From: a virus
Taxonomy: Duplodnaviria > Caudoviricetes
Virus record (IMG/VR): IMGVR_UViG_3300010149_000008
Reading direction: 5' to 3' (one strand)
Length of the DNA stretch: 64,000 nt
The stretch's first letter is position 1; every line of letters starts with the position of its first letter. The notes under the pieces are model-generated. The model worked only from the letters and a program-made list of their open reading frames with translations, searched no databases and was not told where the DNA came from. A program made the translations under genes and the position numbers. Shown here one piece after another: positions 46,626 through 63,944 of the stretch.

Positions 46626-46653
46626 AAAAACAATAATTAGCAATTATAGGCTT

Positions 46654-46697: not shown

Positions 46698-46779
46698 AGT
46701 ATTTGCTGTTTGATAATTTAGTTCTTTTATAAAGACTTTTATAATTAGATATGTATATAAAAGATTATAGGAGTTTTGT

Positions 46780-48279: not shown

Positions 48280-48283
48280 TATC

Positions 48284-48943
48284 ATGGCTAGATTATTTGT
48301 AGGACAAAGAGAAGCTGACTTTTTTGCTGATTTAACTAAAGAAGTGATAAAAGACATTGCTGGCCAAAAAGTATATTACTATACAATTAGAGAAGACTTA
48401 TCAAATGTACATGAGCTATATGAAGAGTCTCCTCAGAAAATATTTAATCCTCCTGTCGAAATTGAATGTATGGTTGAATGGCAACCTTCAGAAGTTCGTA
48501 CTACAAACTTTGGTACTGAAACTATAAAAACACTTACGTTGTATCTTCACTATAGAGACTTGCTTGATAGAGAAATAGTTTTTAATGAAGGGGACTACTT
48601 TTCTTACGGCCCATACTTTTTTGAAGCAACTTCAATTATATACGACAAGATTGCATATGGTCAAATTGAAAGAATTATTTCTATAAAAGTTAATGGTAAA
48701 CAAACAAGAATGCATCAAGTTGCGCTCAGACCTCATGGGCCTATTGATGAAGCATATTCTGATCAAGATGCAATTCAAACAACATTTACACAGCAAAGAG
48801 GTATACCTGATCATGACGTAAGAAGATTACAAGATGATGGAATAATCGATAAACCAATTTCAGGCCCAAGGTCTGTAAAACCTGATGGTTCTGCAAGAAG
48901 TGTTAATGGCGTAGGATCTTCTTTCTATGGAGATGAAGACTAA
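48284..48943 (+). CDS. gp14: Neck/head-closure protein (T4 gp14-like)
   Basis: GQKVYYY...NVHELYEES, EGDYFSYG; syntenic after gp13. Confidence 0.65.
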   Translation: MARLFVGQREADFFADLTKEVIKDIAGQKVYYYTIREDLSNVHELYEESPQKIFNPPVEIECMVEWQPSEVRTTNFGTETIKTLTLYLHYRDLLDREIVFNEGDYFSYGPYFFEATSIIYDKIAYGQIERIISIKVNGKQTRMHQVALRPHGPIDEAYSDQDAIQTTFTQQRGIPDHDVRRLQDDGIIDKPISGPRSVKPDGSARSVNGVGSSFYGDED

Positions 48944-50163
48944 TGGCAACAAAATATGATTTAGACAGTAATAAAAGATATGCACCTACAGGATATGAAG
49001 GATCTGGTAATACAGATTACATTATACCCTCGTGCGGTGTTGAAGACCTAGATCATTCTATTTTTAATCTTTTTGACAAACAGATACCTTTATATTATGA
49101 TCTTCATGGCGAAATAAAAAAAGTTCCTGTAATATTTGCTACAGGCGAACGATTTGCTTTGTTAAGAAGAAAACAACCGATAACTGACAGAAATGGTGCA
49201 TTAATATTGCCACTTATTTCTATAACAAGGACAGCAATAGAAAACGTACCTTCAAAAGGAATTGCTAATAATCAAATGTTTCCTAATATTGTGACAAAAA
49301 GAATATCAAAAAAAGATTTAGAATATAGACAACAAAAAAACATAGAAAATTTAAAAAACGTAAAAGGTGAAGATCTATCACAAGAAGGAGATATTTCTCT
49401 TAAGCCGAGAATAGAAAAAAATATTGTTGAAACAATCGAGATGCCTCCAGTTAAATATTTTGGCGCTAATTACGAGATTTCAATCTGGTCATCTTTTACT
49501 CAGCAAATGAACAAATTATTGGAAGCGATTATGAGTGCTTACACACTTAATCCTGGACAGCAGTTTAGATTAGAAAGTGACAAAGGCTACACATTTTCAG
49601 CATTTGTTGATGGGAGTATATCACAAGATACAAACTATAGCGACTTTACTGATGCAGAAAGATATATCAAATATAATATGACAATTAATGCAACAGGCTA
49701 TATTATTGCGCCAAATATTTTAGGAGGTAAAACTGCGTTAAGATCGTTTATGAGTGCACCTGAAGTATCTTTTGATGTATTAGAAGAATTTGTACAATTA
49801 GATCCTCAAGTAGGAGGTGTTGCTGATCCTGATCCTAATGCACATATGTTTGATGACTTAGCAACAGAGGATACATTAGTTGCTTCTACTAGAGTAGGTA
49901 TAGTCGGCGGTAGTAATGCAAAAGAGCTACAAGAAATAGACAGGTCAAAAGGATTTGCAGTTGATCTAAATATAGATAAATATAAGTCAGATGTTGTAGG
50001 CGAAAAATCTTCTGATAGTAAAAAGGTAAGAAAAACATTTGTTAGAGACTTGAACGGAAAACTTGTTCCTGTTATGGCTAAAGCTTCAAAAGGCAAAGGC
50101 GAAACTGTATACGATGCTAGATTAGGTGAAGTTTTATTTAATATTTCATCAATTGACGAATAA
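48943..50163 (+). CDS. gp15: Tail terminator/sheath stabiliser (T4 gp15-like)
   Basis: KVPVIFATGERF...LPLISITRT, YEISIWS; synteny before sheath. Confidence 0.65.
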   Translation: MATKYDLDSNKRYAPTGYEGSGNTDYIIPSCGVEDLDHSIFNLFDKQIPLYYDLHGEIKKVPVIFATGERFALLRRKQPITDRNGALILPLISITRTAIENVPSKGIANNQMFPNIVTKRISKKDLEYRQQKNIENLKNVKGEDLSQEGDISLKPRIEKNIVETIEMPPVKYFGANYEISIWSSFTQQMNKLLEAIMSAYTLNPGQQFRLESDKGYTFSAFVDGSISQDTNYSDFTDAERYIKYNMTINATGYIIAPNILGGKTALRSFMSAPEVSFDVLEEFVQLDPQVGGVADPDPNAHMFDDLATEDTLVASTRVGIVGGSNAKELQEIDRSKGFAVDLNIDKYKSDVVGEKSSDSKKVRKTFVRDLNGKLVPVMAKASKGKGETVYDARLGEVLFNISSIDE

Positions 50164-50222
50164 TTAAGAAATGACGAAATATTTAAAGATAGAAGATAAA
50201 ATAATATTAGGAGAATAATATC

Positions 50223-53200
50223 ATGGCAGAACAGACATTTAAGTCTCCAGGATTTTTCGAGCGAGAGATCGAAGTCATTAGTAGACCTCTTACACGAAAT
50301 ACAGCTACACCGGTTGGTGTAATTGGTCCTGCCCAAAAAGGACAAGCATTCGTACCTAAAACAGTAACAAGTGTTGATGAATTTATTAGAGAATTCGGTA
50401 TGCCAGATCAAGACACGTCTGCTGCCCATGCTGTCAGTGAATTCTTTACAAACGGCGGAAAAGCAGCAACATTCTGCCGCATCTTAGGCTCAGGAAAATC
50501 TGCAGCTGCAGGCACAAATAATTACGCAGGCTTTAAGATTGATGGAACAGCTCTTACAGCAGGAGGCGAAACAGATAGAGCACGTGGCGCAGTACAATTT
50601 ATTGTTGCAGAGCATGAAATTAACTTGGCAGAACACGTTACTTATGGTATTTTTAACGATAACGACTCACATAAGACATCAATGGATCCAGACCCATCAG
50701 ACAATGGCGGTGCTTTACAAGATGTCAATAGCTCTGATAGAGAAGTTCAATTAGTTCGTGCTATGATTTTTATGCATAAAGATTATACTCTTAGGATTAG
50801 TGAAGCCTCAGATACAACTGTTGGCCAATCGAGTGGTACTAATGATACTGCAACTCCAGCTTCCGGATTATTTAAGCTATGGATAATGAAGCATGATGAT
50901 GATACAGATGCTGATCCTTATACAGTATCATTAGACCCTTCTTCTACGCAATACATTGCAAAAGTTTTAAACACAGATCCTTATAGCTTTACAAAAGAAA
51001 AACACTTTTTATATGCAGACTTTCCTGTAGATAGCGAAATTGCTGAAGTTAAAGATGTAGCTGATCGTGTTGGTGTTGTAAGAGGTAATAGTGAAAATAT
51101 AGATTTGTATGGTGACTTTGTATCTAGGTTTACTGCACCTCAAACAACGTCTTTTATCTCCCAACCTTTTGGCAAGAAAGAATACGATCTTTTCCACTTT
51201 GAATCACTTGATGATGGTGCATATGCAAGTGGAAGTTATAAAATTTCTATTGCAAACATTAAGGCATCAACTCAAAAGAATTATAAGTATGGAACATTTT
51301 CTGTCCAACTTCGAAAAATTGATGATACAGATGAAGCACCAGTTATTCTCGAGTCATATAGCAGATGCTCTTTAGATCCTGACGCAAAAAATTATATTGC
51401 AAGATTAATTGGTGATCAAAAAGTAATGCTTTCTTTAGACGTTGATTCTGAAGATGAAAAGAGACTTGTAAGAGAAGGAACATTCCAAAGCAAGTCGTCT
51501 AGAATTCGTGTTGTTATGTCAAAAGACGTTATGAGAGGCGAAGCTCCAGATGACGCGCTTCCTTTTGGGTTTAGAGGCATACCCGCTTTAAAAACTACAA
51601 GTGACGGAAAAGATGCCAACGCAACAACAGTTAATAGTTTGCTTCTAGGCAAAGTAGTTGATTCATCATCAGTTTTAAATGCGTTAGGTAGTTCAATTTT
51701 GCCTCCTTTACCTTTTAGATCCAAGGTTACAAAAGGTAGCATGCTTAATAATGCAGGCGCATATTTTCAAGAATACTTTGGGCAAGCTCTTAACAAAGAA
51801 ACTGGTTTAAAGACTTCACAAGAAAACGTAAAGACATCTCTTTATTGGGGGCTTCATACTTCTAGAGTTTCAAATATTGATCGACCAAATGACAGTCTTT
51901 CTACAGACTTTAATCCTTTAATTAGATCTTTGACAAAATTTCTTGCAAAAAGAGACGAAGTTAAGTTTAGTGGAACAGCTGCAGATAAGTTTAACAATAA
52001 CAAATTTAGTCTTGCAAAAGTAGCATTCCCAGGAAGTACAGTAGCATCAATTCAAGGTAGTCCTCTTGATGCATTCTTGGAAGCTGTTTATGTAAGAAAC
52101 GCTGATGTTGACAGTGCATTTTATGATGCAGTTAATCATACAATTGATATGGATGCTGATTCTAGTGCTAACGATCCTTTCATAGGAGAATTAAGTACTG
52201 TAGCTTCAAATGCTTTAATTGTAGGTACAACTTATGAAATATTAACAACTCCTGACAACACAGCTGCAGGTATATCAAATAATGTTGTAGGCGAAATATT
52301 TACAGCAACCTTAACTTCTACAGGCGATGCTAATGGAACAATGAGACCATTTAGAAATACAAGAGCTACAATGGCTAAGTTGCTAGCTGAAGATATTACA
52401 AAGTTTAATAAATACAGCCAGATGGCTAAGTTTACTGCTCCTTTTTATGGTGGTTTTGACGGCGTTAACATTTTAAATAGAGACGATGCTTTCTTTACAG
52501 ATAGAGCAACATCAGTTGATTTAGGTGGACATGCAGGCGACGGTGGTTATACAAGTGGTCTAGACGGTACTGATGATGCTGATCCTATGCAAGGTAAAGA
52601 ATTAAATAACAATGCTGTTATATCATATAGAAATGCTATATTAGTTATGACTGATGAGATGATTATTGATCATAATGTCTTGGTTGTTCCGGGAATTCGT
52701 GAATCACTCATTTCAGATTATGCAGCACGTCGTGTAAGAGATTATGGCAAAGCAATTTATTTAATGGATATTCCTCATTACACTAAAGATAACGAAAGAA
52801 TATTTGTTTCATCTCGTGGTATTGCAACAGGAACAGCAGATGTTGATTTGACATCTTCTATCTTCGACCAGCGTGAGCTTGATTCATCATATGTTGCAAC
52901 GTATTTTCCTGATGTAATGATTAAAGACAGTGGTGATGATGAAAATGCTAGACAGACAAATCATAGAGCTAAGCGTGTACCATCATCAGCTGTTGCTTTA
53001 GGTGCACTTGCAAGAACAGACGCAAACCAAAGTCCTTGGTTTGCTCCTGCAGGATTTTCTCGTGGTGCTCTACCTAATGTTACAAGTCTTGATGTAAGAT
53101 TAAACGCAGCAGATCGTGATACTCTTTACGAGGCACGAATCAATCCAATTGCGAACTTCCCAAATAATCAGTTTGTTATATTTGGTCAGAAGACAACGCA

Positions 53201-53534
53201 AATTGCAAGAACAGCACTTGATAGAGTTAACGTTAGACGATTAATGATTAATATCAAGAGAAGAATTCAGAAAGTTGCACAAGGTTTGCTATTTGAGCAA
53301 AATGATGCAGCAACAAGAAACCGTTTTATTTCAAGAACATCTTCGATTTTGGCAGACGTTAGAGTTCGTCAAGGTATTGAAGATTTCCGCGTAATCATGG
53401 ACGACACAAATAACTCTGCTGAGGATGTGGATAACAATAGATTGAATGGTCGTATTGTTGTTGTACCAACTCGAGCTGTTGAGTTTATTGCAATGGACTT
53501 TGTAATTACAAATAGCGGTGTAGAATTCCCTTAA
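50223..53534 (+). CDS. gp18: Tail sheath protein 1 (gp18-like)
   Basis: FKSPGFFEREI, GPAQKGQAFVP, PWFAPAGFSRG, INPI, FGQKT, ALDRVNVRRL, PTRAVEFI. Confidence 0.93.
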   Translation: MAEQTFKSPGFFEREIEVISRPLTRNTATPVGVIGPAQKGQAFVPKTVTSVDEFIREFGMPDQDTSAAHAVSEFFTNGGKAATFCRILGSGKSAAAGTNNYAGFKIDGTALTAGGETDRARGAVQFIVAEHEINLAEHVTYGIFNDNDSHKTSMDPDPSDNGGALQDVNSSDREVQLVRAMIFMHKDYTLRISEASDTTVGQSSGTNDTATPASGLFKLWIMKHDDDTDADPYTVSLDPSSTQYIAKVLNTDPYSFTKEKHFLYADFPVDSEIAEVKDVADRVGVVRGNSENIDLYGDFVSRFTAPQTTSFISQPFGKKEYDLFHFESLDDGAYASGSYKISIANIKASTQKNYKYGTFSVQLRKIDDTDEAPVILESYSRCSLDPDAKNYIARLIGDQKVMLSLDVDSEDEKRLVREGTFQSKSSRIRVVMSKDVMRGEAPDDALPFGFRGIPALKTTSDGKDANATTVNSLLLGKVVDSSSVLNALGSSILPPLPFRSKVTKGSMLNNAGAYFQEYFGQALNKETGLKTSQENVKTSLYWGLHTSRVSNIDRPNDSLSTDFNPLIRSLTKFLAKRDEVKFSGTAADKFNNNKFSLAKVAFPGSTVASIQGSPLDAFLEAVYVRNADVDSAFYDAVNHTIDMDADSSANDPFIGELSTVASNALIVGTTYEILTTPDNTAAGISNNVVGEIFTATLTSTGDANGTMRPFRNTRATMAKLLAEDITKFNKYSQMAKFTAPFYGGFDGVNILNRDDAFFTDRATSVDLGGHAGDGGYTSGLDGTDDADPMQGKELNNNAVISYRNAILVMTDEMIIDHNVLVVPGIRESLISDYAARRVRDYGKAIYLMDIPHYTKDNERIFVSSRGIATGTADVDLTSSIFDQRELDSSYVATYFPDVMIKDSGDDENARQTNHRAKRVPSSAVALGALARTDANQSPWFAPAGFSRGALPNVTSLDVRLNAADRDTLYEARINPIANFPNNQFVIFGQKTTQIARTALDRVNVRRLMINIKRRIQKVAQGLLFEQNDAATRNRFISRTSSILADVRVRQGIEDFRVIMDDTNNSAEDVDNNRLNGRIVVVPTRAVEFIAMDFVITNSGVEFP

Positions 53535-53578
53535 TCAGAATAGTTATAATAAAGTAAAAACATAGGAGAAAAATCAAT

Positions 53579-56500
53579 ATGGCTGGACAAGGCTCAGCGA
53601 GAGTAACTCTACGTGAAATCGATTTATCACAAGTAAGAAATCCTCAACAACTACCACAGGGTGTCCCAGCTGCTGTTGTTGGTCCTGCGAGAAAAGGTCC
53701 AGCCTTTGTCCCGCAAACATTTGCAACAATGCAGCAGTTTAATGAGGTCTTTGGAAATATGCTTGAAGTGGGACGAGAAGGCAACTCAAACCAATTTGGA
53801 CCTTTAGCTCTTAACGAGTGGATGCGTTCTGCGCAAGCAGGAACGTATCTTCGCGTTTTAGGCGTTGGTAATGGTTTGCCATCAAGCAGCGGCAAAACAT
53901 CTGAAGCAGGTTTTGTTGTAGGTGAAAAACAGCTTCAATTGCAATCAACAGGTCTTGCAAAAGTTGGTGACAACGAAAATGCAGCTATTACAGACTCAAC
54001 TGCAGCTTTAGCTTTAGGCAGAACTCATATGCTTGGCTGCTTTATGAAAGATGCAGAAGGTAGCACATATCTTGCAGATGCAGGAATGGCTTCAGAAGAT
54101 GCTGCAGCTTCTATTGTTATAGACTTTGGTGATCAAGTGCCTGAAGATGGCAGTACTCTTTCTTTAATCGCAGACGATGGTGACGGCACATTTACAACTA
54201 GAGTTTATGGTTTTGATAATGGCGGCGGCGCTGTTGCAAACACTAATCATGTTATTAACACAGTGGGTGGTGCAAATGCAATTGCTGCACTTCTAGCTAC
54301 AGAAATTCAACAAAATCATGCAAATTTAAATGCTGTAGCTGCAGCAAATACTGGGCGACTAACGATTACACAAGTCCAGTCAGGCGCAGCAGGTAATACA
54401 GAAGTTAAAGCAACACTTAATAATGCTGTTACAAATAAAATTACAATTACTTCTGCAGACGGCACAAGCATTACAAATAGTACATCTGGCGCAACGTTTA
54501 GATTTAGAGAAGGAACAGGCGGAACCAAAGCTTCAGGTAAAATTTCAGGACAAGATGCAGCAATTACAGATGGACAAAACATTGTAATTAAAAGTCCAGA
54601 CGTTACAGGTACAGAAAAAACTGTAACATTTACTTTTAATACACAGGCAACAATTGATACTGCAATTGATAATGATGGAGCTGTTGCTGTAGGACAAGAC
54701 AAAGCTGATGCTAAAGCAGCTGCAGCAACTGCAGGATTTTATAGAGTTGCTGCAGCAACTGGTGCGATTACTGTGTTAAATGTTACTGGAGGCTCAAATG
54801 CAGAAAATAATGCAGCATCTTTACAAAATCTGTTAAATGCTATTAACTCTTCTGGACATGATATCTCTGGTCTTATTACAGGAGAACGATCAGACGACGA
54901 CCTTGTTTTAACTCAGGTACTTCAAGGAACTGAAGGTAATCTAGCTTTAACTACAACAGCTGCTGCTGCCTTTACTATTGGTGGTTTAGAAGATGGTAGC
55001 GGTAACGCTAATGTCATAGAAGGCGGCACAGCAGCTGCTAACGCTAATGTAACGTTAAAGTTTAACGGTCAACCAAACGCAGGTGACGTTATAAGACTTC
55101 CTAATCTAAATGGCTCAACAGATGGAGAAGCTTTTCACTTTATAGCAACGCTAACAGGAGATCTCATTGGTGGTCTAAATGCTACAAGACCAGGTGGTCT
55201 AGATGATACAATTGGCGGAAATACTGCTATAGCTGTTGAGTTAGGTGAGTCAATTGATGTAACACTAGATAATTTAAGACATGCATTACTACAAAACGGT
55301 GGCGCAGACCCTGATAATAATGCAGGTCATGGATTAGATAAAGATAATATATCAGTTGTTATTGATTTCTCAAGCAAAGAATTAAAAATTGCTGCTGATG
55401 GTGCAAACGGTTTGGCAGACAACAAAGAATTAATCTTTAACGTGTCTTCAAACGTAACAGTTTCTAATCCTGCAGGTGAGAGTTTAGTTGGTAACTTTGG
55501 TGAAAAGACAATCAACTTTTCAGGTGGCGAGACAAATGCTGCACAACCAGTTATTCGTGGCGTTTTAATGACTCCACAAGGTGTAAGAGCTTCTTTAGAG
55601 GTCAATGATAATTTAGGAGACGATGATGCAGATATTTTAGTTCCATTAAAAGACTTATCATCTCATGATAAAGTTAGGCTTCGTGCACATGGAAAAACAT
55701 TTGGTAATACAGCTGATAATAATCTTGCAGGATACGTTGTAGGTGAAGTTGATAGCAGTCAAGGATTTAAATTAATTTTAAATGGCTATTCTAATATAGA
55801 GAACCCTGCAGTTTTGGACTGTTCATTCGATCCTAATTCACCATCATATTTTGCAAAAGTATTAAACACAGATCCAACAAAGATGGAAGAGTTAGGACAT
55901 TATTTATACGCTAACTGGGATATTAATCCAGCCGTTGCTGCTCCTTCAAATGCAGGCTTAAAGCATAGTGGTGCGAGTGTTATTGGTACAAACTATGAAG
56001 ACATGAAGGGTTTCTTGGTTGCAGGTGCAGCAGGAAGAAACACATCAGATACAGGTAAACCTGACTATGAAGACTTTAGAAGCAAATTTGCAACTGCAAG
56101 AACGCCATGGATTGTTTCGCAATTTTATAGTGCAGGTGTAAATACTGCTGCTAGACCTGGGACGGCAGCCTCGGGCGGCGCAGTTAAGCTATTTAGACTT
56201 TACTCAGTAGATGACGGTGTAATTTCTAATGGCAAATTTAGATTGTTAATTTCAAACTTAAGATACGGTGGACAAAATGATTATGGATCATTTGATATGT
56301 CACTTGAAAGTTTTGCGTCAGATCCTATTAGAGGAACTGTTGTAGCTTCATGGAAAAATGCAAACTTAGATACTAATAGCAGAAACTTTATCGGTCGACT
56401 TGTTGGTGATAAACACATTTATTATGATTTTGAGAGTGACTTAGGAAAACAAAGACTACGTGAAGAAGGTCAATATGACAGAAAAAATCCTTACGTAAGA

Positions 56501-58138
56501 ATTGAACTTTCAGATGCACTTAAGCAAGGTGACGTCGAAATCGATGCTTTACCAACAGGTTTCCAAGGTCATGCACACTTATTTACTAAGAGTAATGGCA
56601 ACTTCTTAGAACTTGATGTAGCTGAAGGTAATAGAGTTTTTACAGACTCTGCTAATCTAGTTACAGAAACTTTATCACAAGCGCAGGTTTTACCTCTTGA
56701 CTTTGTAACAAGCATTAATAGAATTGAAGGTGCTTCTTCTTTAGCTTCTGATGATGATTTAGCTTGGGGCGTTAAATTTGCTTTAAGAGAAAACAATCAT
56801 ATAAGTTATACTGATTCGAATGGCAATTTAGTTAAAGGTCACAAAGAGTTAACAGAGCAAGTATTTAACAAATCAATTAGTTCATGGGCTAAGTTCTTTC
56901 CTTCGTTTGGATCGAATCCTGCTTGGATTACAGATGATGCTGCAGACTCAAGTCAAAATTCTTTCTTCTCATTAGAAAAAATTGCAATACCAACAGCTTC
57001 TTTAGACACTGATAGCAATATATCTACTTGGGATGGAGCTACTTATAAGAGAAAACCAGCAGACACGCCAAGTGGTAGATTTGTTAAAATTTCTAAAGAC
57101 GCGTTAGGCGGAAATGCTAAATATCTTAAGTTCCGATGTATGTTCCAAGGTGGATTTGATGGTGTTAATATATTTGATGAAGAAAAAGCTGAATTATCAG
57201 GCGTGGCATCTTTAAGAGAAGGTGAAGACGAGACAAATTCTCAAAAGTTTACTGGTCCTACAGTTATGGCATATCAAAGAGCAGTTGATGTTTTAACTGA
57301 TAAGTCTGCAACTGAGTTCCAATTGCTAGCTATTCCTGGCCAAAGATCACCACGAGTTACTGACTATGCAATTACAGCTTGTGAAGATAGATTTGATGCA
57401 ATGCTTATTATTGATATTGTTGAGAAAGATGCTTTAAACAGCTTAATTGAAGACAGTGATGTTAAGCCACATGTTAGAAATACTATTTCGTTATTTTCTG
57501 ATCGTGTTTTAGATACATCATTTGCTGCAGCTTATTTTCCAGATGTAGTTGTACGTCGTCCTTCTGACAATGCACCAATTGTTGTCCCACCATCTGTTGG
57601 AATGCTTGGTGTAATGAGTAGAAACGACTCGATTGCAGATCCATGGTTTGCTCCTGCAGGCTTAAATAGAGGTCGTCTAAGTGCTATTGATTCTAGAGTT
57701 CAAATGAACAGAGACTTGTTAGATGATCTTTATGATGCTGACATTAATCCAATTTACGTTCCAGCTGGACGTAGTGGTGAGGTTTACGCATTTGGTCAAA
57801 AGACACTTCTCCAAGATCAGTCAGCGCTCGATAGAATTAATGTACGTCGTCTTCTTATTGACATTAGACGCAAGGTTAAGAAAGTTGGCGAGCAGTTATT
57901 ATTTGAGCCAAATAGATCATCTACATTATCTAGATTTTCTTCATTGGTTGAACCAATCATGGCAAACGTTCAGGAACGAAGAGGTGTTACTCGTTATAAG
58001 GTTCAAATTGACTCTTCAACGACGACACAAAACGACATTGAGAACAATACAATTCGTGGCAAGATCTACTTGCAACCTACTAAGTCTGTAGAGTTTATTT
58101 CTTTAGACTTTGTGGTCACAAATACAATTCAGCAATAA
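53579..58138 (+). CDS. gp18: Tail sheath protein 2 (gp18-like) with three inserted repeat domains
   Basis: GPARKGPAFVP, PWFAPAGLNRG, FGQKTL, ALDRINVRRL, QPTKSVEFISLDF. Confidence 0.93.
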   Translation: MAGQGSARVTLREIDLSQVRNPQQLPQGVPAAVVGPARKGPAFVPQTFATMQQFNEVFGNMLEVGREGNSNQFGPLALNEWMRSAQAGTYLRVLGVGNGLPSSSGKTSEAGFVVGEKQLQLQSTGLAKVGDNENAAITDSTAALALGRTHMLGCFMKDAEGSTYLADAGMASEDAAASIVIDFGDQVPEDGSTLSLIADDGDGTFTTRVYGFDNGGGAVANTNHVINTVGGANAIAALLATEIQQNHANLNAVAAANTGRLTITQVQSGAAGNTEVKATLNNAVTNKITITSADGTSITNSTSGATFRFREGTGGTKASGKISGQDAAITDGQNIVIKSPDVTGTEKTVTFTFNTQATIDTAIDNDGAVAVGQDKADAKAAAATAGFYRVAAATGAITVLNVTGGSNAENNAASLQNLLNAINSSGHDISGLITGERSDDDLVLTQVLQGTEGNLALTTTAAAAFTIGGLEDGSGNANVIEGGTAAANANVTLKFNGQPNAGDVIRLPNLNGSTDGEAFHFIATLTGDLIGGLNATRPGGLDDTIGGNTAIAVELGESIDVTLDNLRHALLQNGGADPDNNAGHGLDKDNISVVIDFSSKELKIAADGANGLADNKELIFNVSSNVTVSNPAGESLVGNFGEKTINFSGGETNAAQPVIRGVLMTPQGVRASLEVNDNLGDDDADILVPLKDLSSHDKVRLRAHGKTFGNTADNNLAGYVVGEVDSSQGFKLILNGYSNIENPAVLDCSFDPNSPSYFAKVLNTDPTKMEELGHYLYANWDINPAVAAPSNAGLKHSGASVIGTNYEDMKGFLVAGAAGRNTSDTGKPDYEDFRSKFATARTPWIVSQFYSAGVNTAARPGTAASGGAVKLFRLYSVDDGVISNGKFRLLISNLRYGGQNDYGSFDMSLESFASDPIRGTVVASWKNANLDTNSRNFIGRLVGDKHIYYDFESDLGKQRLREEGQYDRKNPYVRIELSDALKQGDVEIDALPTGFQGHAHLFTKSNGNFLELDVAEGNRVFTDSANLVTETLSQAQVLPLDFVTSINRIEGASSLASDDDLAWGVKFALRENNHISYTDSNGNLVKGHKELTEQVFNKSISSWAKFFPSFGSNPAWITDDAADSSQNSFFSLEKIAIPTASLDTDSNISTWDGATYKRKPADTPSGRFVKISKDALGGNAKYLKFRCMFQGGFDGVNIFDEEKAELSGVASLREGEDETNSQKFTGPTVMAYQRAVDVLTDKSATEFQLLAIPGQRSPRVTDYAITACEDRFDAMLIIDIVEKDALNSLIEDSDVKPHVRNTISLFSDRVLDTSFAAAYFPDVVVRRPSDNAPIVVPPSVGMLGVMSRNDSIADPWFAPAGLNRGRLSAIDSRVQMNRDLLDDLYDADINPIYVPAGRSGEVYAFGQKTLLQDQSALDRINVRRLLIDIRRKVKKVGEQLLFEPNRSSTLSRFSSLVEPIMANVQERRGVTRYKVQIDSSTTTQNDIENNTIRGKIYLQPTKSVEFISLDFVVTNTIQQ

Positions 58139-58189
58139 TTAAATAAATTAGTTAGATATATATAAATAAAGAATTAGGAGTTTTTAAAC

Positions 58190-58678
58190 ATGGCTGAGAC
58201 ACTATCCGTTACAGAGATGATACCTAATAAGTTTGAACCAAAGAGAAAAAATCGATGGGTCTTTGCTATTGAGGGTATCGACGCTTTTCTTATGAAGACG
58301 GCGAACCGTCCTTCGTATTCAACAAATGAGACAACAATACCTTTTATTAACAGTACTCGTTACCTTGCTGGTAAGACAACTTTTGATACAATGTCTGTGA
58401 CACTTCATGACCCAATTGCACCTTCAGGCGCACAACAGGTTATGGAATGGATCAGAACTCACTTCGAGTCTGTATCAGGTCGTGCAGGTTACGCTGACTT
58501 TTACAAGAGAGACTGCCAGCTTAAGATGCTTGATCCAGTTGGTACAGTTGTTGAGCTTTGGGACATCAAAGGTTCATTTATAACACAAGCAGGTTTTGGT
58601 GACCTTTCTTACGATGGAGATGATCCACAAGAAATTTCATTGACTTTGCGATTTGACAACTGCGTTCTACAATACTAA
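58190..58678 (+). CDS. gp19: Tail tube protein (gp19-like)
   Basis: FEPKRKNRW, YLAGKTTF..MSVTLHD, QVMEW, KRDCQLKMLDPVG..VE.W.IKGSF, LRFDNC. Confidence 0.9.
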   Translation: MAETLSVTEMIPNKFEPKRKNRWVFAIEGIDAFLMKTANRPSYSTNETTIPFINSTRYLAGKTTFDTMSVTLHDPIAPSGAQQVMEWIRTHFESVSGRAGYADFYKRDCQLKMLDPVGTVVELWDIKGSFITQAGFGDLSYDGDDPQEISLTLRFDNCVLQY

Positions 58679-58728
58679 TTTAGATATTGCAACTTAATTG
58701 TTGCTAGCAATAATCTTGGTGTCGTCTT

Positions 58729-58766
58729 AAACAAAAGAGTGGCTTTCGGGCTGCTCTTTTTTGTTT
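58729..58766 (+). terminator. Rho-independent (possibly bidirectional) terminator with UUCG loop
   Basis: AAACAAAAGAGTGGCT-TTCG-GGCTGCTCTTTTTTGTTT. Confidence 0.8.
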
Positions 58767-58875
58767 TCGTTTAATTTATTTAACGACAAAGTATTTCTTA
58801 TCAATAATTAAGTAAAAGTCAAAACAGCAAAAAACAGTGAATAATACTTATTTAATATAATGCGATAGGATTACT

Positions 58876-61800
58876 ATGTCAAATAACGATTTAGTTAGAG
58901 TAGAATTTGGAACAGTAACAAACACTGATGATCAAACCATATACAAAGATTTAAATGCCCAATCAGCAAACATAATAGGCACTGCTTTTAAAGGCCCAGC
59001 ATTTGTTCCCCAAGTTTTGTTTAACAGAGCAACCTTAAACGGTGAAATCGTTAGGAATACTATGACTAACGTTTTGGGCACTCATAGACAAAACTTTAGG
59101 GCACATCTTTTTGATGATTATCTTTGCTATCCTGATAGTGAAGCTTATGATGCTGCTTCTACTTGGTTTTCTGGTGGTGGAGAATATGCATATTTTACAA
59201 GAGTTTTAGGTATTGGTAGCGGCGTAAGAAGTAACACGACAGGCAAAATGATAGGTAGTGGATTTAATCTATCTAAAAATATTTCTAGCGGAACACTTGA
59301 TAATAAAATAGGAAGAAATATAAATGCAAATGATGGAGGTGATCCAGGTTCTGTTGGCTTTGTTGTAAGAAAAATTAACGAAGTTGGCAAATCAGATCCT
59401 ACTCCTGATGATTCAACACCTACAAATAATTTAGATTATTTTTCAGAATTAGGATTACCTGATAATTCTTTTATACTAACAGATGTTTATATGTTTGCAG
59501 GAGGCGTTTTGCCTGATTTCCCTTCAACAATATCAGCAGAAAATTCTACTAGCTATGATACAACTACTAAAAATTTTACAGATATAACTTCCCAATTTTT
59601 AGATGCTAGTCTTGATGACACTCAAAGATTACAAGATGTCTTGATGCTAAATTTTAATCCTTATCAAAGTATCAAAGAAGAAGAAGACGCAGAAACTGAT
59701 CTTAACGTTAAAAAGGCGTTTTCTATAAGCACTTCAAGTCAAAATATAAAAACAAAAGAAAACCATTATAACGACGCATCTAGAAGATCGAATCAGTTTT
59801 TTAATAATTTTATTAATAGAGGACATGTTTTATATTCAAAATACCCTACATGTGGTTTATCTGCAGTTGAAAATAAGACAGCTATATTAAATACTAGACA
59901 ATACCCACAAGATCCAGTCAACTATCCAGACTATAATTCTTTTGAATGTGAGTACCAAACAGCTAAAACACCATGGGTTACTTCACAACCTATCAACAGA
60001 TCAGGATTTAGTACTGCTAATAATGACAATAGATTAAACATACACGATAAAGTTGTTGATTTGTTTAGACTTTGGTCGTTAGATGATGGAGAAATAGGAA
60101 ATCGATTTAGAATAAAAATAAACATTAAAGAGTGTGGTGATACTAGTTACGTAAAGCCTAATAAAGTTGATCCTGATTTTAATATCTTAAAAGCAGATGA
60201 TGACATGTATTCTTCTTTTGACCTGTATATTTTTGAATATGACCCTAGAGTAAATGCTTATATTGATTTACAAGTACCTGATGGTGATGACGGTTCTGGT
60301 AGACTTTATAAACCTGTAGAAACTTATCTTGATTTAAACTTAAACCCAGACTCAGACAAGTATATTGGACGTGTTATAGGGACAAAGCATACATTTTATG
60401 ATTTTGATAGTGACATGATAAAAGTTACAGGCAAGTATGAAAATAAAAGCAAATATTTAAGAGTAGAAATACATGAAGATATAGAGGCAAAAAAGTATGA
60501 CACAGAAGATGGACCTATACAACATCGATTATTACCAGCAGGATTTAAATCTTACCCACATATTGAATTAAACAAAGCTGCTTTTAGTGGACATTACAAC
60601 GCAGGTGATACACCTATAACTACAACTCAGCTAGACAATATTTTTGTTGGTGAAAAGGTTTATCATTTGCCGCCACAGTATGCTTTACACTATCACATTG
60701 ACGATGCACTTGCTTCTGAAGGTGGTGATATACAAAACAATTGGGGTGTATTGTTTTGCCCGTCGATGTTAGAAAATACTAATAATAAGTTTTTTTTAGA
60801 CAGAGTGCAAGAAGAAAATAGAGAATCTGGCGGTACTGGTGAAGAACATGTTTTTCCTCTTTCACCTCATTTTTACTATTCAAAATATTTCTTATCAGGA
60901 ATTCAGGAAACAAACGCAGACGGAGATCTAGTACAATCACTAACAAAAAACGTGTGGATTGAAGAAAATAACTACTTAAATTCATTTTTTCACTTAGAAA
61001 AGATCGTTTTTAAAAATGAATTAGATACCGATAGCGTACTAATAAGTTCTTTTGTAGGTGATGAAAGAAAAGATATGAGTTATAAACATTCTGGAAGAGC
61101 AGTAATAGGTAATGACAATTACGAGTACATAAATTTATCAGAGGACAATAGTTTAATATGGGACAATAACAATAGACTGTTAAAAGATAAATTTAGAAAT
61201 AAGCTTTCTTTTGACTTTTTTACTTACGGTGGCTTTGATGGAGTTGATTTAAGAGATAATGATAAAAGGTTGTTAAGAAATGATGCAATAATAAGAGAGA
61301 TAGCAGGTGAAGAACAAGGATCAGAAACAAATGGTGCAACATATAATTCATATAAAAAAGCAATAAGCATAGCAACAGACGATGCATATACTACAGCTGA
61401 TCTTTTAGTTGTTCCCGGGATTAAAGAAATACCGCTGATTAGACAATGTGTAAATGCTTGTGAAGACTCAAGAACACAAGACATGTTTTTTATAGGTGAC
61501 GTTTCTGGTGCATGCTCTTCAGTCGACATAACTTTTGCAAATCAAACAATTGTTCTAGTTGAAGATGCAACGCCTGATGATGAAATTGACAATAATGTTT
61601 ATAGTAATAAGCCTGTTAAGGTTTCGAAAGGTGTAATGGGCAATTATACAATACTTAATAGCAATTTAAACAACAGTTACAGAAGAGACACATCAAAAAC
61701 AAGAGCTGAAGGTAGATTTATTCTTACTGATAAGAATGTTCCTTTATTGGGAGATGTACAAACATTTTATTCTTATAAAAATGTAGTTAAAAGTCAATTT

Positions 61801-62571
61801 AATAATATAGTAAATTTATGGCCAACATTTTTTATTGAAAGCAGATATTTTCTACCTGTATTAGGTGATGTTATTGCAACTAATGCAGATAGTGAGTTAG
61901 ATAAAAAGATTGGACCAGAAACTGTTGCCTTAGGATTGATTGCAAAAAATGGTCTAAGAGATAGTTTAGTTAATTCAACTACACCTTCTTTTTTAGAAAA
62001 CTTTAATGTTAGCATGCGTCTATTAGATGATGTAAACTTAAATGCAAGAGACATTAATTTTGAAACAAATTCTGATCGTGCAAAAAAAGCAGGAATAAAT
62101 TTGTTGTATAACAATACTGAAGCAGATACATTTAAGCTATTGAGTCAAAATACAGCTTATGTAGAAAGAGGATCTTTGTTCAAAGATCAAGGTGTTGTAA
62201 GAACAATTCAGCAAATTAAAAAAAGAATAATGTTTGACATGTTTTTAAATCAACAGTTTGTTGAAGGAGGATTCTTTTTTGGACAGAATTCTAATTTAAC
62301 AAATATGTATCAAAAGCTAGAGATACAATTAAACAATATACTGACTACTTTTATTGAAGAAGGTTTGATTACAGACTATAAAGTAAGAATACCACAAAGT
62401 GATGATGATCAAACTATGTTAGATATGCAAAACTATATACTTAGAGGAAATATTATTTTACAAATGGGCATCTCAGATACAATAGACATAACACTAGACG
62501 AGATATTACAAGATCTGAGTTTGACTGCAGATCCAGTCAATGGTGCTGTTTTAGTACCTAGAATACCTTGA
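58876..62571 (+). CDS. Tail sheath-like protein 3 (divergent paralogue)
   Basis: GTAFKGPAFVPQ, TAKTPWVTSQ, LFRLWSLDDG, LNPDSDKYIGRVIG, GGFDGVD and LLVVPGI match sheath 1/2; the WFAPAG/NVRRL core is degenerate. Confidence 0.8.
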   Translation: MSNNDLVRVEFGTVTNTDDQTIYKDLNAQSANIIGTAFKGPAFVPQVLFNRATLNGEIVRNTMTNVLGTHRQNFRAHLFDDYLCYPDSEAYDAASTWFSGGGEYAYFTRVLGIGSGVRSNTTGKMIGSGFNLSKNISSGTLDNKIGRNINANDGGDPGSVGFVVRKINEVGKSDPTPDDSTPTNNLDYFSELGLPDNSFILTDVYMFAGGVLPDFPSTISAENSTSYDTTTKNFTDITSQFLDASLDDTQRLQDVLMLNFNPYQSIKEEEDAETDLNVKKAFSISTSSQNIKTKENHYNDASRRSNQFFNNFINRGHVLYSKYPTCGLSAVENKTAILNTRQYPQDPVNYPDYNSFECEYQTAKTPWVTSQPINRSGFSTANNDNRLNIHDKVVDLFRLWSLDDGEIGNRFRIKINIKECGDTSYVKPNKVDPDFNILKADDDMYSSFDLYIFEYDPRVNAYIDLQVPDGDDGSGRLYKPVETYLDLNLNPDSDKYIGRVIGTKHTFYDFDSDMIKVTGKYENKSKYLRVEIHEDIEAKKYDTEDGPIQHRLLPAGFKSYPHIELNKAAFSGHYNAGDTPITTTQLDNIFVGEKVYHLPPQYALHYHIDDALASEGGDIQNNWGVLFCPSMLENTNNKFFLDRVQEENRESGGTGEEHVFPLSPHFYYSKYFLSGIQETNADGDLVQSLTKNVWIEENNYLNSFFHLEKIVFKNELDTDSVLISSFVGDERKDMSYKHSGRAVIGNDNYEYINLSEDNSLIWDNNNRLLKDKFRNKLSFDFFTYGGFDGVDLRDNDKRLLRNDAIIREIAGEEQGSETNGATYNSYKKAISIATDDAYTTADLLVVPGIKEIPLIRQCVNACEDSRTQDMFFIGDVSGACSSVDITFANQTIVLVEDATPDDEIDNNVYSNKPVKVSKGVMGNYTILNSNLNNSYRRDTSKTRAEGRFILTDKNVPLLGDVQTFYSYKNVVKSQFNNIVNLWPTFFIESRYFLPVLGDVIATNADSELDKKIGPETVALGLIAKNGLRDSLVNSTTPSFLENFNVSMRLLDDVNLNARDINFETNSDRAKKAGINLLYNNTEADTFKLLSQNTAYVERGSLFKDQGVVRTIQQIKKRIMFDMFLNQQFVEGGFFFGQNSNLTNMYQKLEIQLNNILTTFIEEGLITDYKVRIPQSDDDQTMLDMQNYILRGNIILQMGISDTIDITLDEILQDLSLTADPVNGAVLVPRIP

Positions 62572-62592
62572 TATTGAGGAGAAATTTAATTT

Positions 62593-63441
62593 ATGAGCAA
62601 TTCTTTAGACACACCAATTAATCCAAACCAAATTAAAAGCGAAGGACCAATTCAGGTTTCTAACGTTATGAAAGATGATTTTGGTTTTGAGATACCCCAA
62701 GAAAGTGTACCTTTGCCTTCTAAAGGGATTATTTATCCTGTTGATGGACCACTTTATGGACAAGAAACAATTGATATTAGACCAATGACAGCAAGAGAAG
62801 AAGACATACTTACGTCTCGTGCTTATATTAAGAATGGATCTGTATTAACTAAGCTTTTAGGTTCATGTATCGTTAACAAAACAATTGACCCAGATAATCT
62901 GATTAGTGGTGATAGGAATGCACTTCTTGTTTCATTAAGAATTACAGGCTACGGAGCAGACTATGATGTCGAAGTTGATTGTCCTGAGTGTGGTACTAAG
63001 AGTAAACAAACTTTTGATTTATCACAGTTATCAATTAAAAGATTAGATGTTGAGCCTGTTATTGAAGGAGACAATCTTTTTGAGATTGAGCTACCTGTTA
63101 CAAAAAGAAGCGTTCGAGTAAAGTTCTTGACTGGCCATGACGAGCGTGAAATGATGGTTATTAATGAAAGAAAGAAAAAGAGCGGAATGAAAGTTGAAAC
63201 TGCAATTACTGACAGACTAACACGTTCAATAGTTTCAGTTAATGGCATTACAGACAGAAATAAGCTTACTTTCTTTGTTAAAAACTTGCCAGCTCGAGAT
63301 TCTTTAGCTCTTCGAAGATTTCTAGACAAGCATGAGCCAGGAATTATAATGAAGTCTTGGATGAATTGCCCTTCATGTCATGAGCAAAGCGAGGTGGGCC
63401 TACCTATGGGAGCGTCGTTTTTTTGGCCTGACACCGAATAA
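62593..63441 (+). CDS. gp26: Baseplate hub assembly/tail chaperone protein (T4 gp26-like)
   Basis: VPLPSKG, RPMTAREEDIL, DRNALLVSLR..GYG, CPECG, CPSC. Confidence 0.8.
   Translation: MSNSLDTPINPNQIKSEGPIQVSNVMKDDFGFEIPQESVPLPSKGIIYPVDGPLYGQETIDIRPMTAREEDILTSRAYIKNGSVLTKLLGSCIVNKTIDPDNLISGDRNALLVSLRITGYGADYDVEVDCPECGTKSKQTFDLSQLSIKRLDVEPVIEGDNLFEIELPVTKRSVRVKFLTGHDEREMMVINERKKKSGMKVETAITDRLTRSIVSVNGITDRNKLTFFVKNLPARDSLALRRFLDKHEPGIIMKSWMNCPSCHEQSEVGLPMGASFFWPDTE
63418..63424 (+). promoter_or_regulatory. Putative programmed frameshift site (T7 run, TTT TTT T)
   Basis: A +1/-2 slip joins the gp26-like frame (ASFF) to the overlapping frame (GLTPNNKDLYLEQIF...). Confidence 0.5.
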
Positions 63442-63652
63442 TAAAGATTTATATTTGGAACAAATATTTATCTTAATGTATCATCTAGGCTTTACGTATT
63501 ATGATGCTTATAAGTGCCCCGTCTGGCAAAGGTTTTGGTTTATAAATAGATTTAAGAAGGAACTAGACGTAGCTAAAGAAAACAATCAAAATCCATACTC
63601 AACATCAAAAAGAAATAATAGCGGAAGTAGATCATATCGTAAAGCTTTTTAA
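63419..63652 (+). CDS. gp51/G-T-like chaperone extension frame
   Basis: IFILMYHLGFTYYDAYKCPVWQRFWFINRF; no good RBS/start after the upstream stop. Confidence 0.55.
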   Translation, partial: FFGLTPNNKDLYLEQIFILMYHLGFTYYDAYKCPVWQRFWFINRFKKELDVAKENNQNPYSTSKRNNSGSRSYRKAF

Positions 63653-63686
63653 TATATAATTACAATAAAGGATTAGAGGCTTTTAA

Positions 63687-63944
63687 ATGAAATACATTAA
63701 CGAAAAAGAATTGTTTTTACATAATATTGCAGCAAAATACATCATAGGCGAAAATGTTGAAGTTGAGCTAGATGGAAACTATGCTGAGCTTGTTTGTCTC
63801 AAAGAACTACTTGATATTTCTAAAGAACTAAAAATTTCATTAGATGAATGTAATTCTTTAGACGTCATTATAGACATAATGCAAAAAAAGAAAGATATTA
63901 CATGTAAATTTGAAAGCTTAACAGGTATTTCCTGGAGACTCTAA
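63687..63944 (+). CDS. Hypothetical protein
   Basis: 85-aa ORF with GAGG RBS and ATAATTACA motif 31 nt upstream. Confidence 0.6.
   Translation: MKYINEKELFLHNIAAKYIIGENVEVELDGNYAELVCLKELLDISKELKISLDECNSLDVIIDIMQKKKDITCKFESLTGISWRL

What the first reader, a model, noticed from the sequence alone, without database searches (positions are those of the whole stretch)
50223..62571. Three tail-sheath paralogues with one tube gene
Seen: sheath 1 (1103 aa) and sheath 2 (1519 aa) both keep the WFAPAG/NPI/FGQKT/NVRRL core. A third (1231 aa), after the tube gene and its terminator, shares the N-terminal and middle motifs but has a degenerate C-terminal core. It is also more AT-rich, suggesting lower expression. 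Known: T4 has a single sheath gene. Inference: a heteropolymeric sheath (alternating or segmented rings), with paralogue 3 as a minor initiator or terminator ring.
Basis: partly seen in the sequence, partly recalled or inferred. Interest (0 to 1): 0.7.

Follow-up and report, generated by a model that had tools for sequence, protein, structure and literature searches.

The report
Three sheath paralogues, one tail tube
An uncultured marine jumbo phage of about 256 kb, and a wide group of its relatives, carries three diverged genes for the contractile tail sheath around one tube gene: two look like ordinary lattice subunits, while the third keeps the sheath fold but has lost the usual constraints, so the tail is probably built from several subunit types, as in bacterial injection devices but rarely reported in phages.

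Summary
Four intact + strand ORFs sit at the stated coordinates: S1 (1103 aa), S2 (1519 aa), a gp19-type tube (162 aa) and S3 (1231 aa). S1 and S2 match the Pfam and PHROG sheath families and T4 gp18. S3 matches no library family, but it is a full-length homologue (hhalign E 2e-35 and 7.5e-66). Its AlphaFold model aligns to solved sheaths at Z 19-24.

The order gp15-S1-S2-tube-S3-hub recurs in seven relatives. S1 and S2 have near-invariant terminal arms and C-terminal cores. In S3 these same parts are the least conserved, yet S3 is under purifying selection (dN/dS 0.18). S3 also follows a conserved terminator and has a weaker ribosome-binding site in all five genomes checked.

Its AT-richness is no evidence of low expression. 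S3 has the genome's average GC, and the difference from S1 and S2 lies mostly in codon positions 1 and 2.

Best reading: S1 and S2 co-polymerise as bulk sheath, and S3 is a low-copy specialised sheath-fold subunit, perhaps a terminal ring like Pvc4. No protein-level data exist.

Precedents are the PaBG two-component sheath and eCIS Pvc2/3/4. The scan noted the same pattern earlier on other DNA (e1-5319038, e1-5410837, e1-5410847).

The parts
48943..50163 (+). gp15-like tail terminator / sheath stabiliser (406 aa), immediately upstream of S1
   Evidence: Pfam T4-gp15_tss, E 1.8e-5, 24.5 bits, just under the 25-bit cut-off. Same position in relatives.
50223..53534 (+). S1, a canonical-type tail sheath paralogue (1103 aa) with large inserted domains
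   Evidence: Pfam Phage_sheath_1 (43 bits) and Phage_sheath_1C (35.8 bits), both above cut-off; phrog_23 E 9e-57. Family profile hits T4 gp18 chains at E about 6e-36. First 27 and last 30 residues are 96% and 95% conserved across 5 genomes.
53579..58138 (+). S2, second intact sheath paralogue (1519 aa)
   Evidence: Pfam Phage_sheath_1C 30.6 bits (cut-off 26.9); phrog_23 E 2e-43. 36% identical to S1 over the C-terminal 366 aa, E 5e-58. Arms 91% conserved, C-core 87%.
53939..55765 (+). Hypervariable Ala/Gly/Thr-rich insertion of S2 (residues 121-729)
   Evidence: Mean pairwise identity 0.19. Absent from the 1192-1211-aa S2 of L011, L013 and L015. AF2 model pLDDT 68, rich in beta strands; only weak multi-Ig-like matches.
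58161..58168 (+). TATAAATA, a T4-late-promoter-like motif 22 nt upstream of the tube start codon
   Evidence: the motif is not enriched in the window as a whole: 15 seen vs 12 expected. A similar GATATATATAAATAAG element stands before the tube gene in 4 relatives.
58190..58678 (+). Single gp19-type tail tube gene (162 aa)
   Evidence: phrog_4542 E 1.4e-28; Pfam Phage_T4_gp19 weak. 91-98% identical in relatives, dN/dS 0.04. Only tube match on the contig.
58733..58770 (+). Intrinsic-terminator-like hairpin plus T run between tube and S3
   Evidence: 12-bp stem, 4-nt loop, T-rich tail. A different hairpin followed by T-rich sequence is visible at the same position in the L011, L013 and L015 sequences; L007 was not checked for one.
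58876..62571 (+). S3, divergent sheath-fold paralogue (1231 aa)
   Evidence: No Pfam, PHROG or PDB sequence hit. hhalign to the S1 family E 2e-35 and to the S2 family E 7.5e-66, colinear to the C-terminus. AF2 pLDDT 80, pTM 0.87. Sheath structures match at Z 19-24, 300-430 residues aligned, rmsd about 3 A, spanning model residues 1-1170. dN/dS 0.18.
61516..62568 (+). Remodelled C-terminal core of S3 (residues 881-1231), lacking WFAPAG, FGQKT and NVRRL
   Evidence: C-terminus alone vs the S2 C-terminus: hhalign probability 91%, E 1e-6. The S3 profile hits the S2 C-terminus at E 1.3e-7. Least conserved S3 region (0.27) but dN/dS 0.20.
62593..63441 (+). Baseplate hub gene (282 aa), 21 nt after S3
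   Evidence: Pfam T4_baseplate PF12322, 68 bits; phrog_150 E 5.5e-23. Follows S3 in relatives.

Best explanation
The tail of this T4-related marine jumbo phage is built from three sheath-fold proteins around one gp19-type tube. S1 and S2 are both true lattice subunits and co-polymerise; whether as alternating rings, mixed rings or segments is unknown. S2 also serves as a platform for a hypervariable surface insertion. S3 is an old, selected offshoot of the S2 lineage that keeps the sheath core fold but is freed from the constraints of the repeating lattice. It is made in smaller amounts and most likely forms a specialised low-copy element at one end of the sheath. The baseplate-proximal 'sheath initiator' ring, as for Pvc4/Afp4 in extracellular contractile injection systems, is the favoured position. 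Shown here: homology, predicted fold, synteny, selection and conservation patterns, and expression signals. Inferred: co-assembly, stoichiometry and the position of S3.
For: (1) All three are sheath homologues, and S3 is predicted to keep the whole sheath core.
(2) The order gp15-S1-S2-tube-S3-hub is conserved in L007, L011, L012, L013, L015, L028 and L029, although S3 identity falls to about 32%.
(3) S1 and S2 behave like lattice subunits. Their N- and C-terminal arms are 91-96% conserved and their C-cores 83-87%. Their C-terminal strands resemble each other (VEFIxxDFVxTN).
(4) S3 shows the reverse pattern: arms 27-31% and C-core 27% conserved. Yet dN/dS is 0.18 overall and 0.20 in the C-core, and about 45 clusters at 50% identity match the S3 profile over its full length.
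(5) S3 is set apart in expression signals. It follows a positionally conserved terminator. Its SD is weaker (TAGGA or AAAGG, against TAGGAG for S1, S2, tube and hub in all 5 genomes). Its GC3 is slightly lower than that of S1 and S2 in 6 of 6 related genomes.
(6) S3 is followed within 8-70 nt by the baseplate hub gene, with no terminator-like site found between them in the window.
(7) Precedents exist. In PlPVC1, Pvc4 forms the initiator ring and Pvc2 and Pvc3 alternate (PMC12546770). In phage PaBG both sheath paralogues are found in the virion (PMC7412058).
(8) A third copy lacking the core motifs arose independently from the S2-type gene in another lineage: in L027, P0108 is sister to the S2-type copy at 100/100 support, and the AU test rejects joining it to the S3 clade, p 1e-11. 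This argues for a recurring functional need.
Against: There is no proteomic, structural or expression-level evidence for any of the three proteins. Adjacency of S3 to the hub gene is not universal. In L027 the third copy lies before the tube gene, and in L026 an S3-type gene sits among nucleotide-metabolism genes, far from tail genes. The variable arms and inner domain of S3 could equally mean that it has left the sheath lattice altogether. The gp25-like sheath adaptor lies about 72 kb upstream of S3, so it gives no neighbourhood support. The GC3 difference is small, and in single-sheath relatives the sheath gene also has lower GC3 than the tube gene, so codon composition says little about dosage.
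Confidence: 0.5

Rival explanations
1. S3 has been repurposed. It keeps the sheath fold but is no longer part of the contractile lattice. Instead it serves as a baseplate-periphery, collar or decoration protein, or as a fibre-docking or assembly factor. Only S1 and S2 form the sheath.
For: The parts that make lattice and tube contacts in known sheaths (terminal arms and C-terminal core) are the least conserved parts of S3. The N-core, the shared middle domain and the GGFDG block are better conserved. All core motifs are lost across the whole S3-type clade. In one lineage the gene has moved away from the tail genes.
Against: The predicted core still superposes on almost the whole of small sheath proteins (for example 314 of 382 pyocin R2 sheath residues, Z 21.7). 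A basic stretch (IKKRI) aligns with the Arg/Lys-rich NVRRL stretch of S1 and S2, and its two Lys are nearly invariant. The C-terminal strand pattern is retained. In most lineages the gene stays between the tube and hub genes.
Confidence: 0.27
2. S1 and S2 are not mixed in one lattice. One builds the sheath. The other is an alternative subunit used under other conditions, or forms a separate structure such as a distinct tail segment or a second tail type.
For: No direct evidence here. It remains open because the stoichiometry is unknown, and because S2 alone carries a lineage-variable 600-aa insertion.
Against: The two genes are adjacent (44-nt gap) with no terminator-like site between them in the window. 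Both have the TAGGAG SD in all 5 genomes aligned. The pair is older than the split of the L027, L028 and window lineages. Both cores and arms are equally and extremely conserved. There is one tube gene and one gp15-like terminator gene on the contig. In PaBG both paralogues are in the virion.
Confidence: 0.18
3. S3 is a decaying duplicate with no function.
For: Loss of the canonical C-terminal motifs, fast divergence (32-41% identity where S1 keeps 65-68%) and no library family hit.
Against: The ORF is intact in every relative examined. About 45 clusters at 50% identity match the S3 profile at full length. dN/dS is 0.18, with every segment between 0.05 and 0.25. The model is confident (pLDDT 80). 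63 columns are invariant across 44 sequences.
Confidence: 0.02

Closest known systems
T4 gp18 tail sheath (Pfam PF04984, PF17482, PF22671; PDB 3J2M, 9MKB)
   Same: S1 and S2 share the C-terminal domains with gp18 (profile E about 6e-36). They sit between a gp15-like gene and a gp19-type tube gene, as in T4-like phages. The S3 model superposes on gp18 (Z 19.4, 430 residues).
   Different: T4 and the nearest cultured relatives (Microcystis phage Mel-JY01, Flavobacterium phage immuto) have one sheath gene of 659-812 aa. Here there are three, of 1103-1519 aa, with large extra domains, and one lacks the conserved C-terminal motifs.
eCIS sheath triads: Pvc2/Pvc3/Pvc4 of Photorhabdus PVC and Afp2/Afp3/Afp4 of Serratia Afp
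   Same: Three sheath-fold paralogues serve one tube. In PlPVC1, Pvc4 is a single initiator ring touching the sheath adaptor and tube initiator, Pvc2 and Pvc3 alternate, and Pvc3 carries an extra knob (PMC12546770). This is the architecture proposed here, with S2 carrying the extra insertion.
   Different: Those are small (350-450 aa) proteins of tailocin-like bacterial devices without a capsid. This locus is in a phage with capsid, neck and T4-type hub genes. Sequence similarity is only at superfamily level (E 1e-6 to 1e-3 for S1). Roles here are inferred, not seen.
Two-component tail sheath of Pseudomonas jumbo phage PaBG (gp76 and gp213)
   Same: Two diverged sheath paralogues arose by duplication, and both were detected among virion proteins (PMC7412058). 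This is the phage precedent for S1 plus S2.
   Different: PaBG has two paralogues of about 58 kDa in separate genome positions and no reported third copy lacking the core motifs. Relatedness to S1/S2 was not tested here.
Uncultured huge phage LR756508 (484 kb): two 824-aa sheath genes
   Same: It has a pair of intact sheath paralogues (29% identity, both with the WFAP(A/S)G core) from the same wider sheath group as Mel-JY01.
   Different: That pair falls outside the S1 / (S2 + S3) clade in the tree, so it appears to be a separate duplication. The tblastn search with S3 found no S3-type copy in that record; its only match there lies inside one of the two intact sheath genes.

Membership tests
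Phage tail sheath protein family (gp18/FI; Pfam PF04984 + PF17482) | Significant match to the sheath C-terminal domain models | tested here: met
   This row is for S1 and S2. S1: PF04984 43 bits and PF17482 35.8 bits. S2: PF17482 30.6 bits. All are above cut-off. phrog_23 E 9e-57 and 2e-43.
Phage tail sheath protein family (gp18/FI; Pfam PF04984 + PF17482) | The same library-model match, for S3 | tested here: not met
   S3 has no Pfam or PHROG hit at E up to 0.1 and 0.01, and its family profile has no PDB sequence hit at E up to 1. Homology shows only by BLASTP to S2 (2e-35), by hhalign (2e-35 and 7.5e-66; C-terminus alone E 1e-6) and by HMM (1.3e-7). S3 is therefore a divergent superfamily member, not a member of the curated families.
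Phage tail sheath protein family (gp18/FI; Pfam PF04984 + PF17482) | Sheath core fold (the two conserved inner domains) | tested here: met
   S3 AF2 model: pLDDT 80.3, pTM 0.87. The top 50 Foldseek hits are all sheath proteins. VIA Z 19-24, rmsd 2.8-3.8 A, 300-432 residues aligned, spanning model residues 1-1170. This is a prediction, not an experimental structure.
Phage tail sheath protein family (gp18/FI; Pfam PF04984 + PF17482) | Conserved N- and C-terminal strand-exchange arms used to knit the lattice | tested here: inconclusive
   S1 and S2 arms are 91-96% conserved. S3 arms are 27-31% conserved but keep a beta-strand-like pattern. Strand exchange itself cannot be tested with these tools.
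Phage tail sheath protein family (gp18/FI; Pfam PF04984 + PF17482) | Polymerises around the tube in virions and contracts | not testable with these tools
   There is no isolate and no proteome. A gp19-type tube gene is adjacent.
eCIS multi-paralogue sheath (Afp2/3/4, Pvc2/3/4) | Three sheath-fold paralogues in one tail gene cluster with one main tube gene | tested here: met
eCIS multi-paralogue sheath (Afp2/3/4, Pvc2/3/4) | Belongs to a capsid-less bacterial contractile injection locus | tested here: not met
   The locus lies in a viral contig with a major head protein (phrog_138 E 2e-74), a gp15-like gene, a T4-type hub gene and a gp25-like gene. Relatives also carry a gp13-like gene. It works like an eCIS sheath triad but is not a member.
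eCIS multi-paralogue sheath (Afp2/3/4, Pvc2/3/4) | One paralogue forms only the baseplate-proximal initiator ring | not testable with these tools
   Only indirect signs exist: the position next to the hub gene, the weaker SD, the upstream terminator, and the relaxed arms and core.
Two-component phage sheath (PaBG type) | Two intact, diverged sheath paralogues that arose by duplication within a phage lineage | tested here: met
   S1 vs S2 E 5e-58, with all core motifs in both. The duplication is older than the split of the L027, L028 and window lineages (99/98 and 100/99 support).
Two-component phage sheath (PaBG type) | Both paralogues present in the virion | not testable with these tools
   Shown for PaBG by gel bands and MS (PMC7412058). 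No data exist for this clade.

The most novel reading that the evidence does not exclude
A large, abundant clade of uncultured T4-related jumbo phages builds a three-component contractile sheath. Two subunits co-polymerise, one of them a display platform for hypervariable domains. A third, recurrently evolved sheath-derived subunit forms a dedicated initiator (or terminator) ring. This would mean that the eCIS-type division of labour among sheath paralogues arose independently in true phages, and more than once.
Probability: 0.35. Interest if true: 0.7.

Novelty: new variant of a known kind. Interest (0 to 1): 0.55.

Why it matters
Contractile sheaths of phages are usually treated as homopolymers of one protein. 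If this clade uses three, it gives a natural system for asking several questions: how ring order is specified in a heteropolymeric contractile lattice, how a sheath subunit is converted into an end-specific adaptor, and how large variable domains can be displayed along a tail without disturbing contraction. The clade recurs in marine metagenomes: five DNA runs from four studies hold most of this stretch, and many relatives are found in Tara and other ocean assemblies. The features bear on how these phages meet their still unknown hosts. The independent origin of a third copy lacking the core motifs in a second lineage suggests a general selective advantage.

Tried and rejected
1. Expression level from public RNA runs. 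Three RNA or RNA-like runs were laid on window 44000-63990. They exist only as assembled contigs, from relatives 90-99% identical. Cover over S3 was sparse, but contigs cannot rank genes, and S3 diverges faster, so more relatives fall below the likeness threshold. No conclusion was drawn.

2. Complex prediction of S3 residues 776-1231 with the tube protein: no verdict (score 0.00). It counts neither for nor against binding.

3. The search for related loci in viral contigs with S3 found nothing. Relatives came from the search for homologous proteins and the look-up of encoding contigs instead.

4. The S3 family profile against PDB sequences gave no hit. Only the fold comparison showed the relationship.

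5. A search of the 267-kb relative for further sheath or tube genes was not possible, because the record is not held. 'Three sheaths, one tube' is therefore established only for the 133-kb contig and for about 23-kb loci of relatives.

6. GC3 as a dosage proxy for S1 and S2 against the tube gene was rejected. Single-sheath phages (immuto, Mel-JY01) show the same gap between sheath and tube.

7. TATAAATA as a late promoter. The motif is not enriched in the window (15 seen vs 12.1 expected). Only its position before the tube gene and its conservation there are suggestive.

8. Fold of the S2 insertion. The model is mediocre (pLDDT 68), and Foldseek gave only weak multi-Ig-like matches of low probability. 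No family was assigned. BLAST self-comparison found no internal repeats.

9. A literature search for three sheath paralogues in a phage found none in the held library. That library is incomplete.
Full report
WHAT IS THERE. The window is part of a 133-kb IMG/VR viral contig with mean GC 0.319. CheckV rates it 53% complete. The same S3 protein also occurs on a 256-kb contig, so the phage is a jumbo phage. At the stated coordinates lie four intact + strand ORFs:
- S1: 50223-53534, 1103 aa
- S2: 53579-58138, 1519 aa
- tube: 58190-58678, 162 aa
- S3: 58876-62571, 1231 aa

Upstream is a gp15-like tail terminator gene (48943-50163; Pfam T4-gp15_tss, E 1.8e-5). Downstream, 21 nt after S3, is a T4-type baseplate hub gene (62593-63441; PF12322, 68 bits).

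ARE THEY SHEATH PROTEINS? S1 and S2 match Pfam Phage_sheath_1/1C above the curated cut-offs and PHROG tail-sheath families at E 9e-57 and 2e-43. The tube matches phrog_4542 at E 1.4e-28. The S1 family profile finds T4 gp18 chains at about 6e-36, and Pvc and Afp sheaths more weakly. S1 and S2 are 36% identical over the C-terminal 366 residues (E 5e-58), and both carry WFAPAG, INPI, FGQKT and NVRRL.

S3 hits no Pfam, PHROG or PDB sequence, but the following results show it is a sheath homologue:
- It is clearly homologous to S2 (BLASTP 2e-35 over the middle region, plus the N-terminal KGPAFVP block).
- Family profiles align colinearly to the end: S3 vs S1 E 2e-35, S3 vs S2 E 7.5e-66.
- The C-terminal 350 residues alone still align to the S2 C-terminus (probability 91%, E 1e-6).
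- The S3 HMM finds the S2 C-terminus in the genome at E 1.3e-7.
- An AlphaFold2 model of residues 32-1231, built with 44 homologues, has pLDDT 80 and pTM 0.87.
- Its 50 best Foldseek matches are all sheath proteins.
- The structural aligner gives Z 19-24, rmsd about 3 A, with 300-432 residues aligned from the N- to the C-terminus. This covers nearly the whole of small sheaths such as pyocin R2 (314 of 382 residues).

CONSERVATION OF THE ARRANGEMENT. S3 has a family of its own. 57 full-length homologues were found by the word-indexed search, and about 45 clusters at 50% identity match the S3 profile at full length in the exhaustive search. Several hundred further hits are S1- or S2-type sheaths that match only up to the GGFDG..PGI block. 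In seven relatives the order is the same as in the window (gp13-like, a 218-aa ORF, gp15-like, S1, S2, tube, S3, hub), although S3 identity falls to 32%.

The nearest cultured relatives have the ancestral order sheath-tube-hub with a single sheath: Microcystis phage Mel-JY01 (812 aa) and Flavobacterium phage immuto (709 aa). A 484-kb uncultured phage, LR756508, has its own pair of intact 824-aa sheaths.

PHYLOGENY. A careful ML tree (36 rows, 914 columns, LG+G4) gave these results:
- An S1 clade (100/100) is sister to a joint S2 + S3 clade (100/99).
- Both lie inside a group (99/98) that excludes Mel-JY01, immuto and LR756508.
- The S1 | (S2, S3) duplication predates the split of the L027, L028 and window lineages.
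- The window's S3 groups with the third copy of L028 (P0096).

Every member of the S3-type group lacks WFAPAG, FGQKT and NVRRL. In the L027 lineage the third, motif-less copy (P0108) is instead sister to that genome's own S2-type gene (100/100). Forcing it into the S3 clade is rejected (AU p 1e-11; the group was named after seeing the tree). A third copy lacking the core motifs therefore seems to have arisen at least twice, unless gene conversion mimics this.

CONSTRAINT PATTERNS. Identities between the window and four relatives are:
- tube 91-96%
- hub 80-89%
- S1 65-68%
- S2 55-67%
- S3 32-41%

By region:
- S1 and S2: the C-terminal core is the best conserved part (0.83 and 0.87) and the inserted domains the worst.
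- S3: the C-terminal core is among the worst conserved (0.27), while the N-core, the shared middle block and the GGFDG block score 0.42-0.50.

The terminal arms mediate strand exchange between subunits in solved sheaths (established knowledge; see PMC12546770). They are 96% and 95% conserved in S1, 91% and 91% in S2, but only 27% and 31% in S3. The C-terminal strands of S1 and S2 resemble each other (VEFIxxDFVxTN), which fits one shared lattice.

S3 is nevertheless under purifying selection. Against a 79%-identical relative (L029), dN/dS is 0.18 overall, 0.20 in the C-core and 0.05 in the GGFDG block. For comparison, S1 is 0.14, S2 0.30 and the tube 0.04. S3 is thus functional but does not behave like a repeating lattice subunit.

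EXPRESSION SIGNALS. A strong hairpin plus T run follows the tube gene (58733-58760). A different hairpin occupies the same place in L011, L013 and L015. The tube gene has TATAAATA 22 nt upstream, conserved in relatives, though the motif is not enriched in the window overall. S1, S2, tube and hub all have a TAGGAG ribosome-binding site in all five genomes, while S3 has TAGGA or AAAGG.

S3 (GC 0.317) has the genome's average composition. S1 and S2 are GC-richer because of codon positions 1 and 2, reflecting Ala/Gly-rich proteins. GC3 is 0.183 for S3 against 0.204 and 0.201. S3 does have the lowest GC3 of the three in 6 of 6 related genomes. The effect is small, and sheath genes of single-sheath phages also lie below their tube genes.

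INTERPRETATION. The best-supported model has two parts.

First, S1 and S2 are both bulk subunits of one sheath. The phage precedent is PaBG, where both paralogues are in the virion (PMC7412058).

Second, S3 is a low-copy specialised sheath-fold subunit. The closest mechanistic analogue is the eCIS triad. In PlPVC1, Pvc4 forms only the initiator ring and contacts the sheath adaptor, the tube initiator's LysM domain and the first tube layer. Pvc2 and Pvc3 alternate above it, and Pvc3 carries an extra knob (PMC12546770). S3's changed inner domain would fit a ring that faces a different partner than the main tube. Its position beside the hub gene also fits a baseplate-proximal role. But that position is not universal, and the gp25-like adaptor gene is far away.

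The main rival is that S3 has left the lattice altogether and serves another structural role. Decay is excluded by the selection data.

My rough odds:
- three true sheath-fold paralogues: above 0.95
- S1 and S2 both in the sheath: about 0.7
- S3 a minor, non-bulk virion component: about 0.6
- S3 specifically the baseplate-proximal ring: about 0.3-0.35

NOVELTY. Multi-paralogue sheaths are known in eCIS and, as a two-component form, in PaBG-like phages. I found no paper describing a phage with three sheath paralogues, or this marine clade's sheath (the library is incomplete).

The scan itself has noted the same pattern on other genomes. Notes e1-5410837 and e1-5410847 describe an evidently related phage with sheaths of 1034, 1479 and 1079 aa. 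Note e1-5319038 describes a lake phage with an old pair plus a younger third copy, a picture my L027 analysis resembles.

I rate the finding a new variant of a known kind. It is real, conserved and widespread, but its mechanism rests on inference.

Noticed in passing
window 53939-55765 (S2 residues 121-729): S2 carries a 600-aa Ala/Gly/Thr-rich insertion that is hypervariable (mean identity 0.19). It is absent from the 1192-1211-aa S2 of L011, L013 and L015 and from the 1005-aa S2 of L028. The AF2 model (pLDDT 68) is rich in beta strands with a few long helices. Foldseek gives only weak multi-Ig-like matches. It may be a surface display or adhesion array on the tail.
   Followed up: partly
L027:1682-11099 (JGI 3300014720 contig): A different lineage has three sheath genes in a row (1008, 1017 and 1042 aa) before the tube gene. 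The third (P0108) lacks WFAPAG, GQKT and NVRRL, yet it is sister to that genome's own S2-type copy (100/100; AU p 1e-11 against joining the S3 clade). This suggests an independent origin of a degenerate third sheath.
   Followed up: partly
L026:10001-13405 (ENA contig k141_105330): An S3-type, motif-less sheath paralogue (P0164, 1134 aa) sits alone among sigma-factor, HNH, NUDIX, ThyX, HSP20 and RNA-ligase genes, far from any tail gene within 10 kb on either side.
   Followed up: no
L017:6029-8503 and 9518-11992 (LR756508.1, 484-kb uncultured phage): Two intact 824-aa sheath paralogues, 29% identical and both with core motifs, lie about 1 kb apart in an unannotated huge-phage genome. The duplication appears separate from the S1/S2 one.
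   Followed up: partly
window 2995-22289: A run of very AT-rich large ORFs (1001, 1549, 543, 952 and 1046 aa; GC 0.24-0.27, against a genome mean of 0.32), interrupted by two ORFs of ordinary GC (0.31 and 0.34). They are presumably fibre or baseplate-periphery proteins and were not examined.
   Followed up: no
window 33440-35455: The major head protein is 671 aa. The phrog_138 match covers only residues 396-654, leaving an N-terminal extension of about 390 aa with only a weak second match (residues 31-100).
   Followed up: no
L022:1948-17432 (window 63944 onward, beyond the window's end): Four large ORFs downstream of the hub gene (1161, 1286, 947 and 1567 aa) have no Pfam or PHROG match at all. 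By position they should include the tape measure and central hub or spike proteins.
   Followed up: partly
G000:C1:2592-11356 (outside the window, upstream): Two adjacent ORFs of 1353 and 1421 aa have GC 0.38-0.39 and high GC1 and GC2, like S1 and S2. The search with S2 does not detect them as sheath homologues. Their nature is unknown.
   Followed up: no
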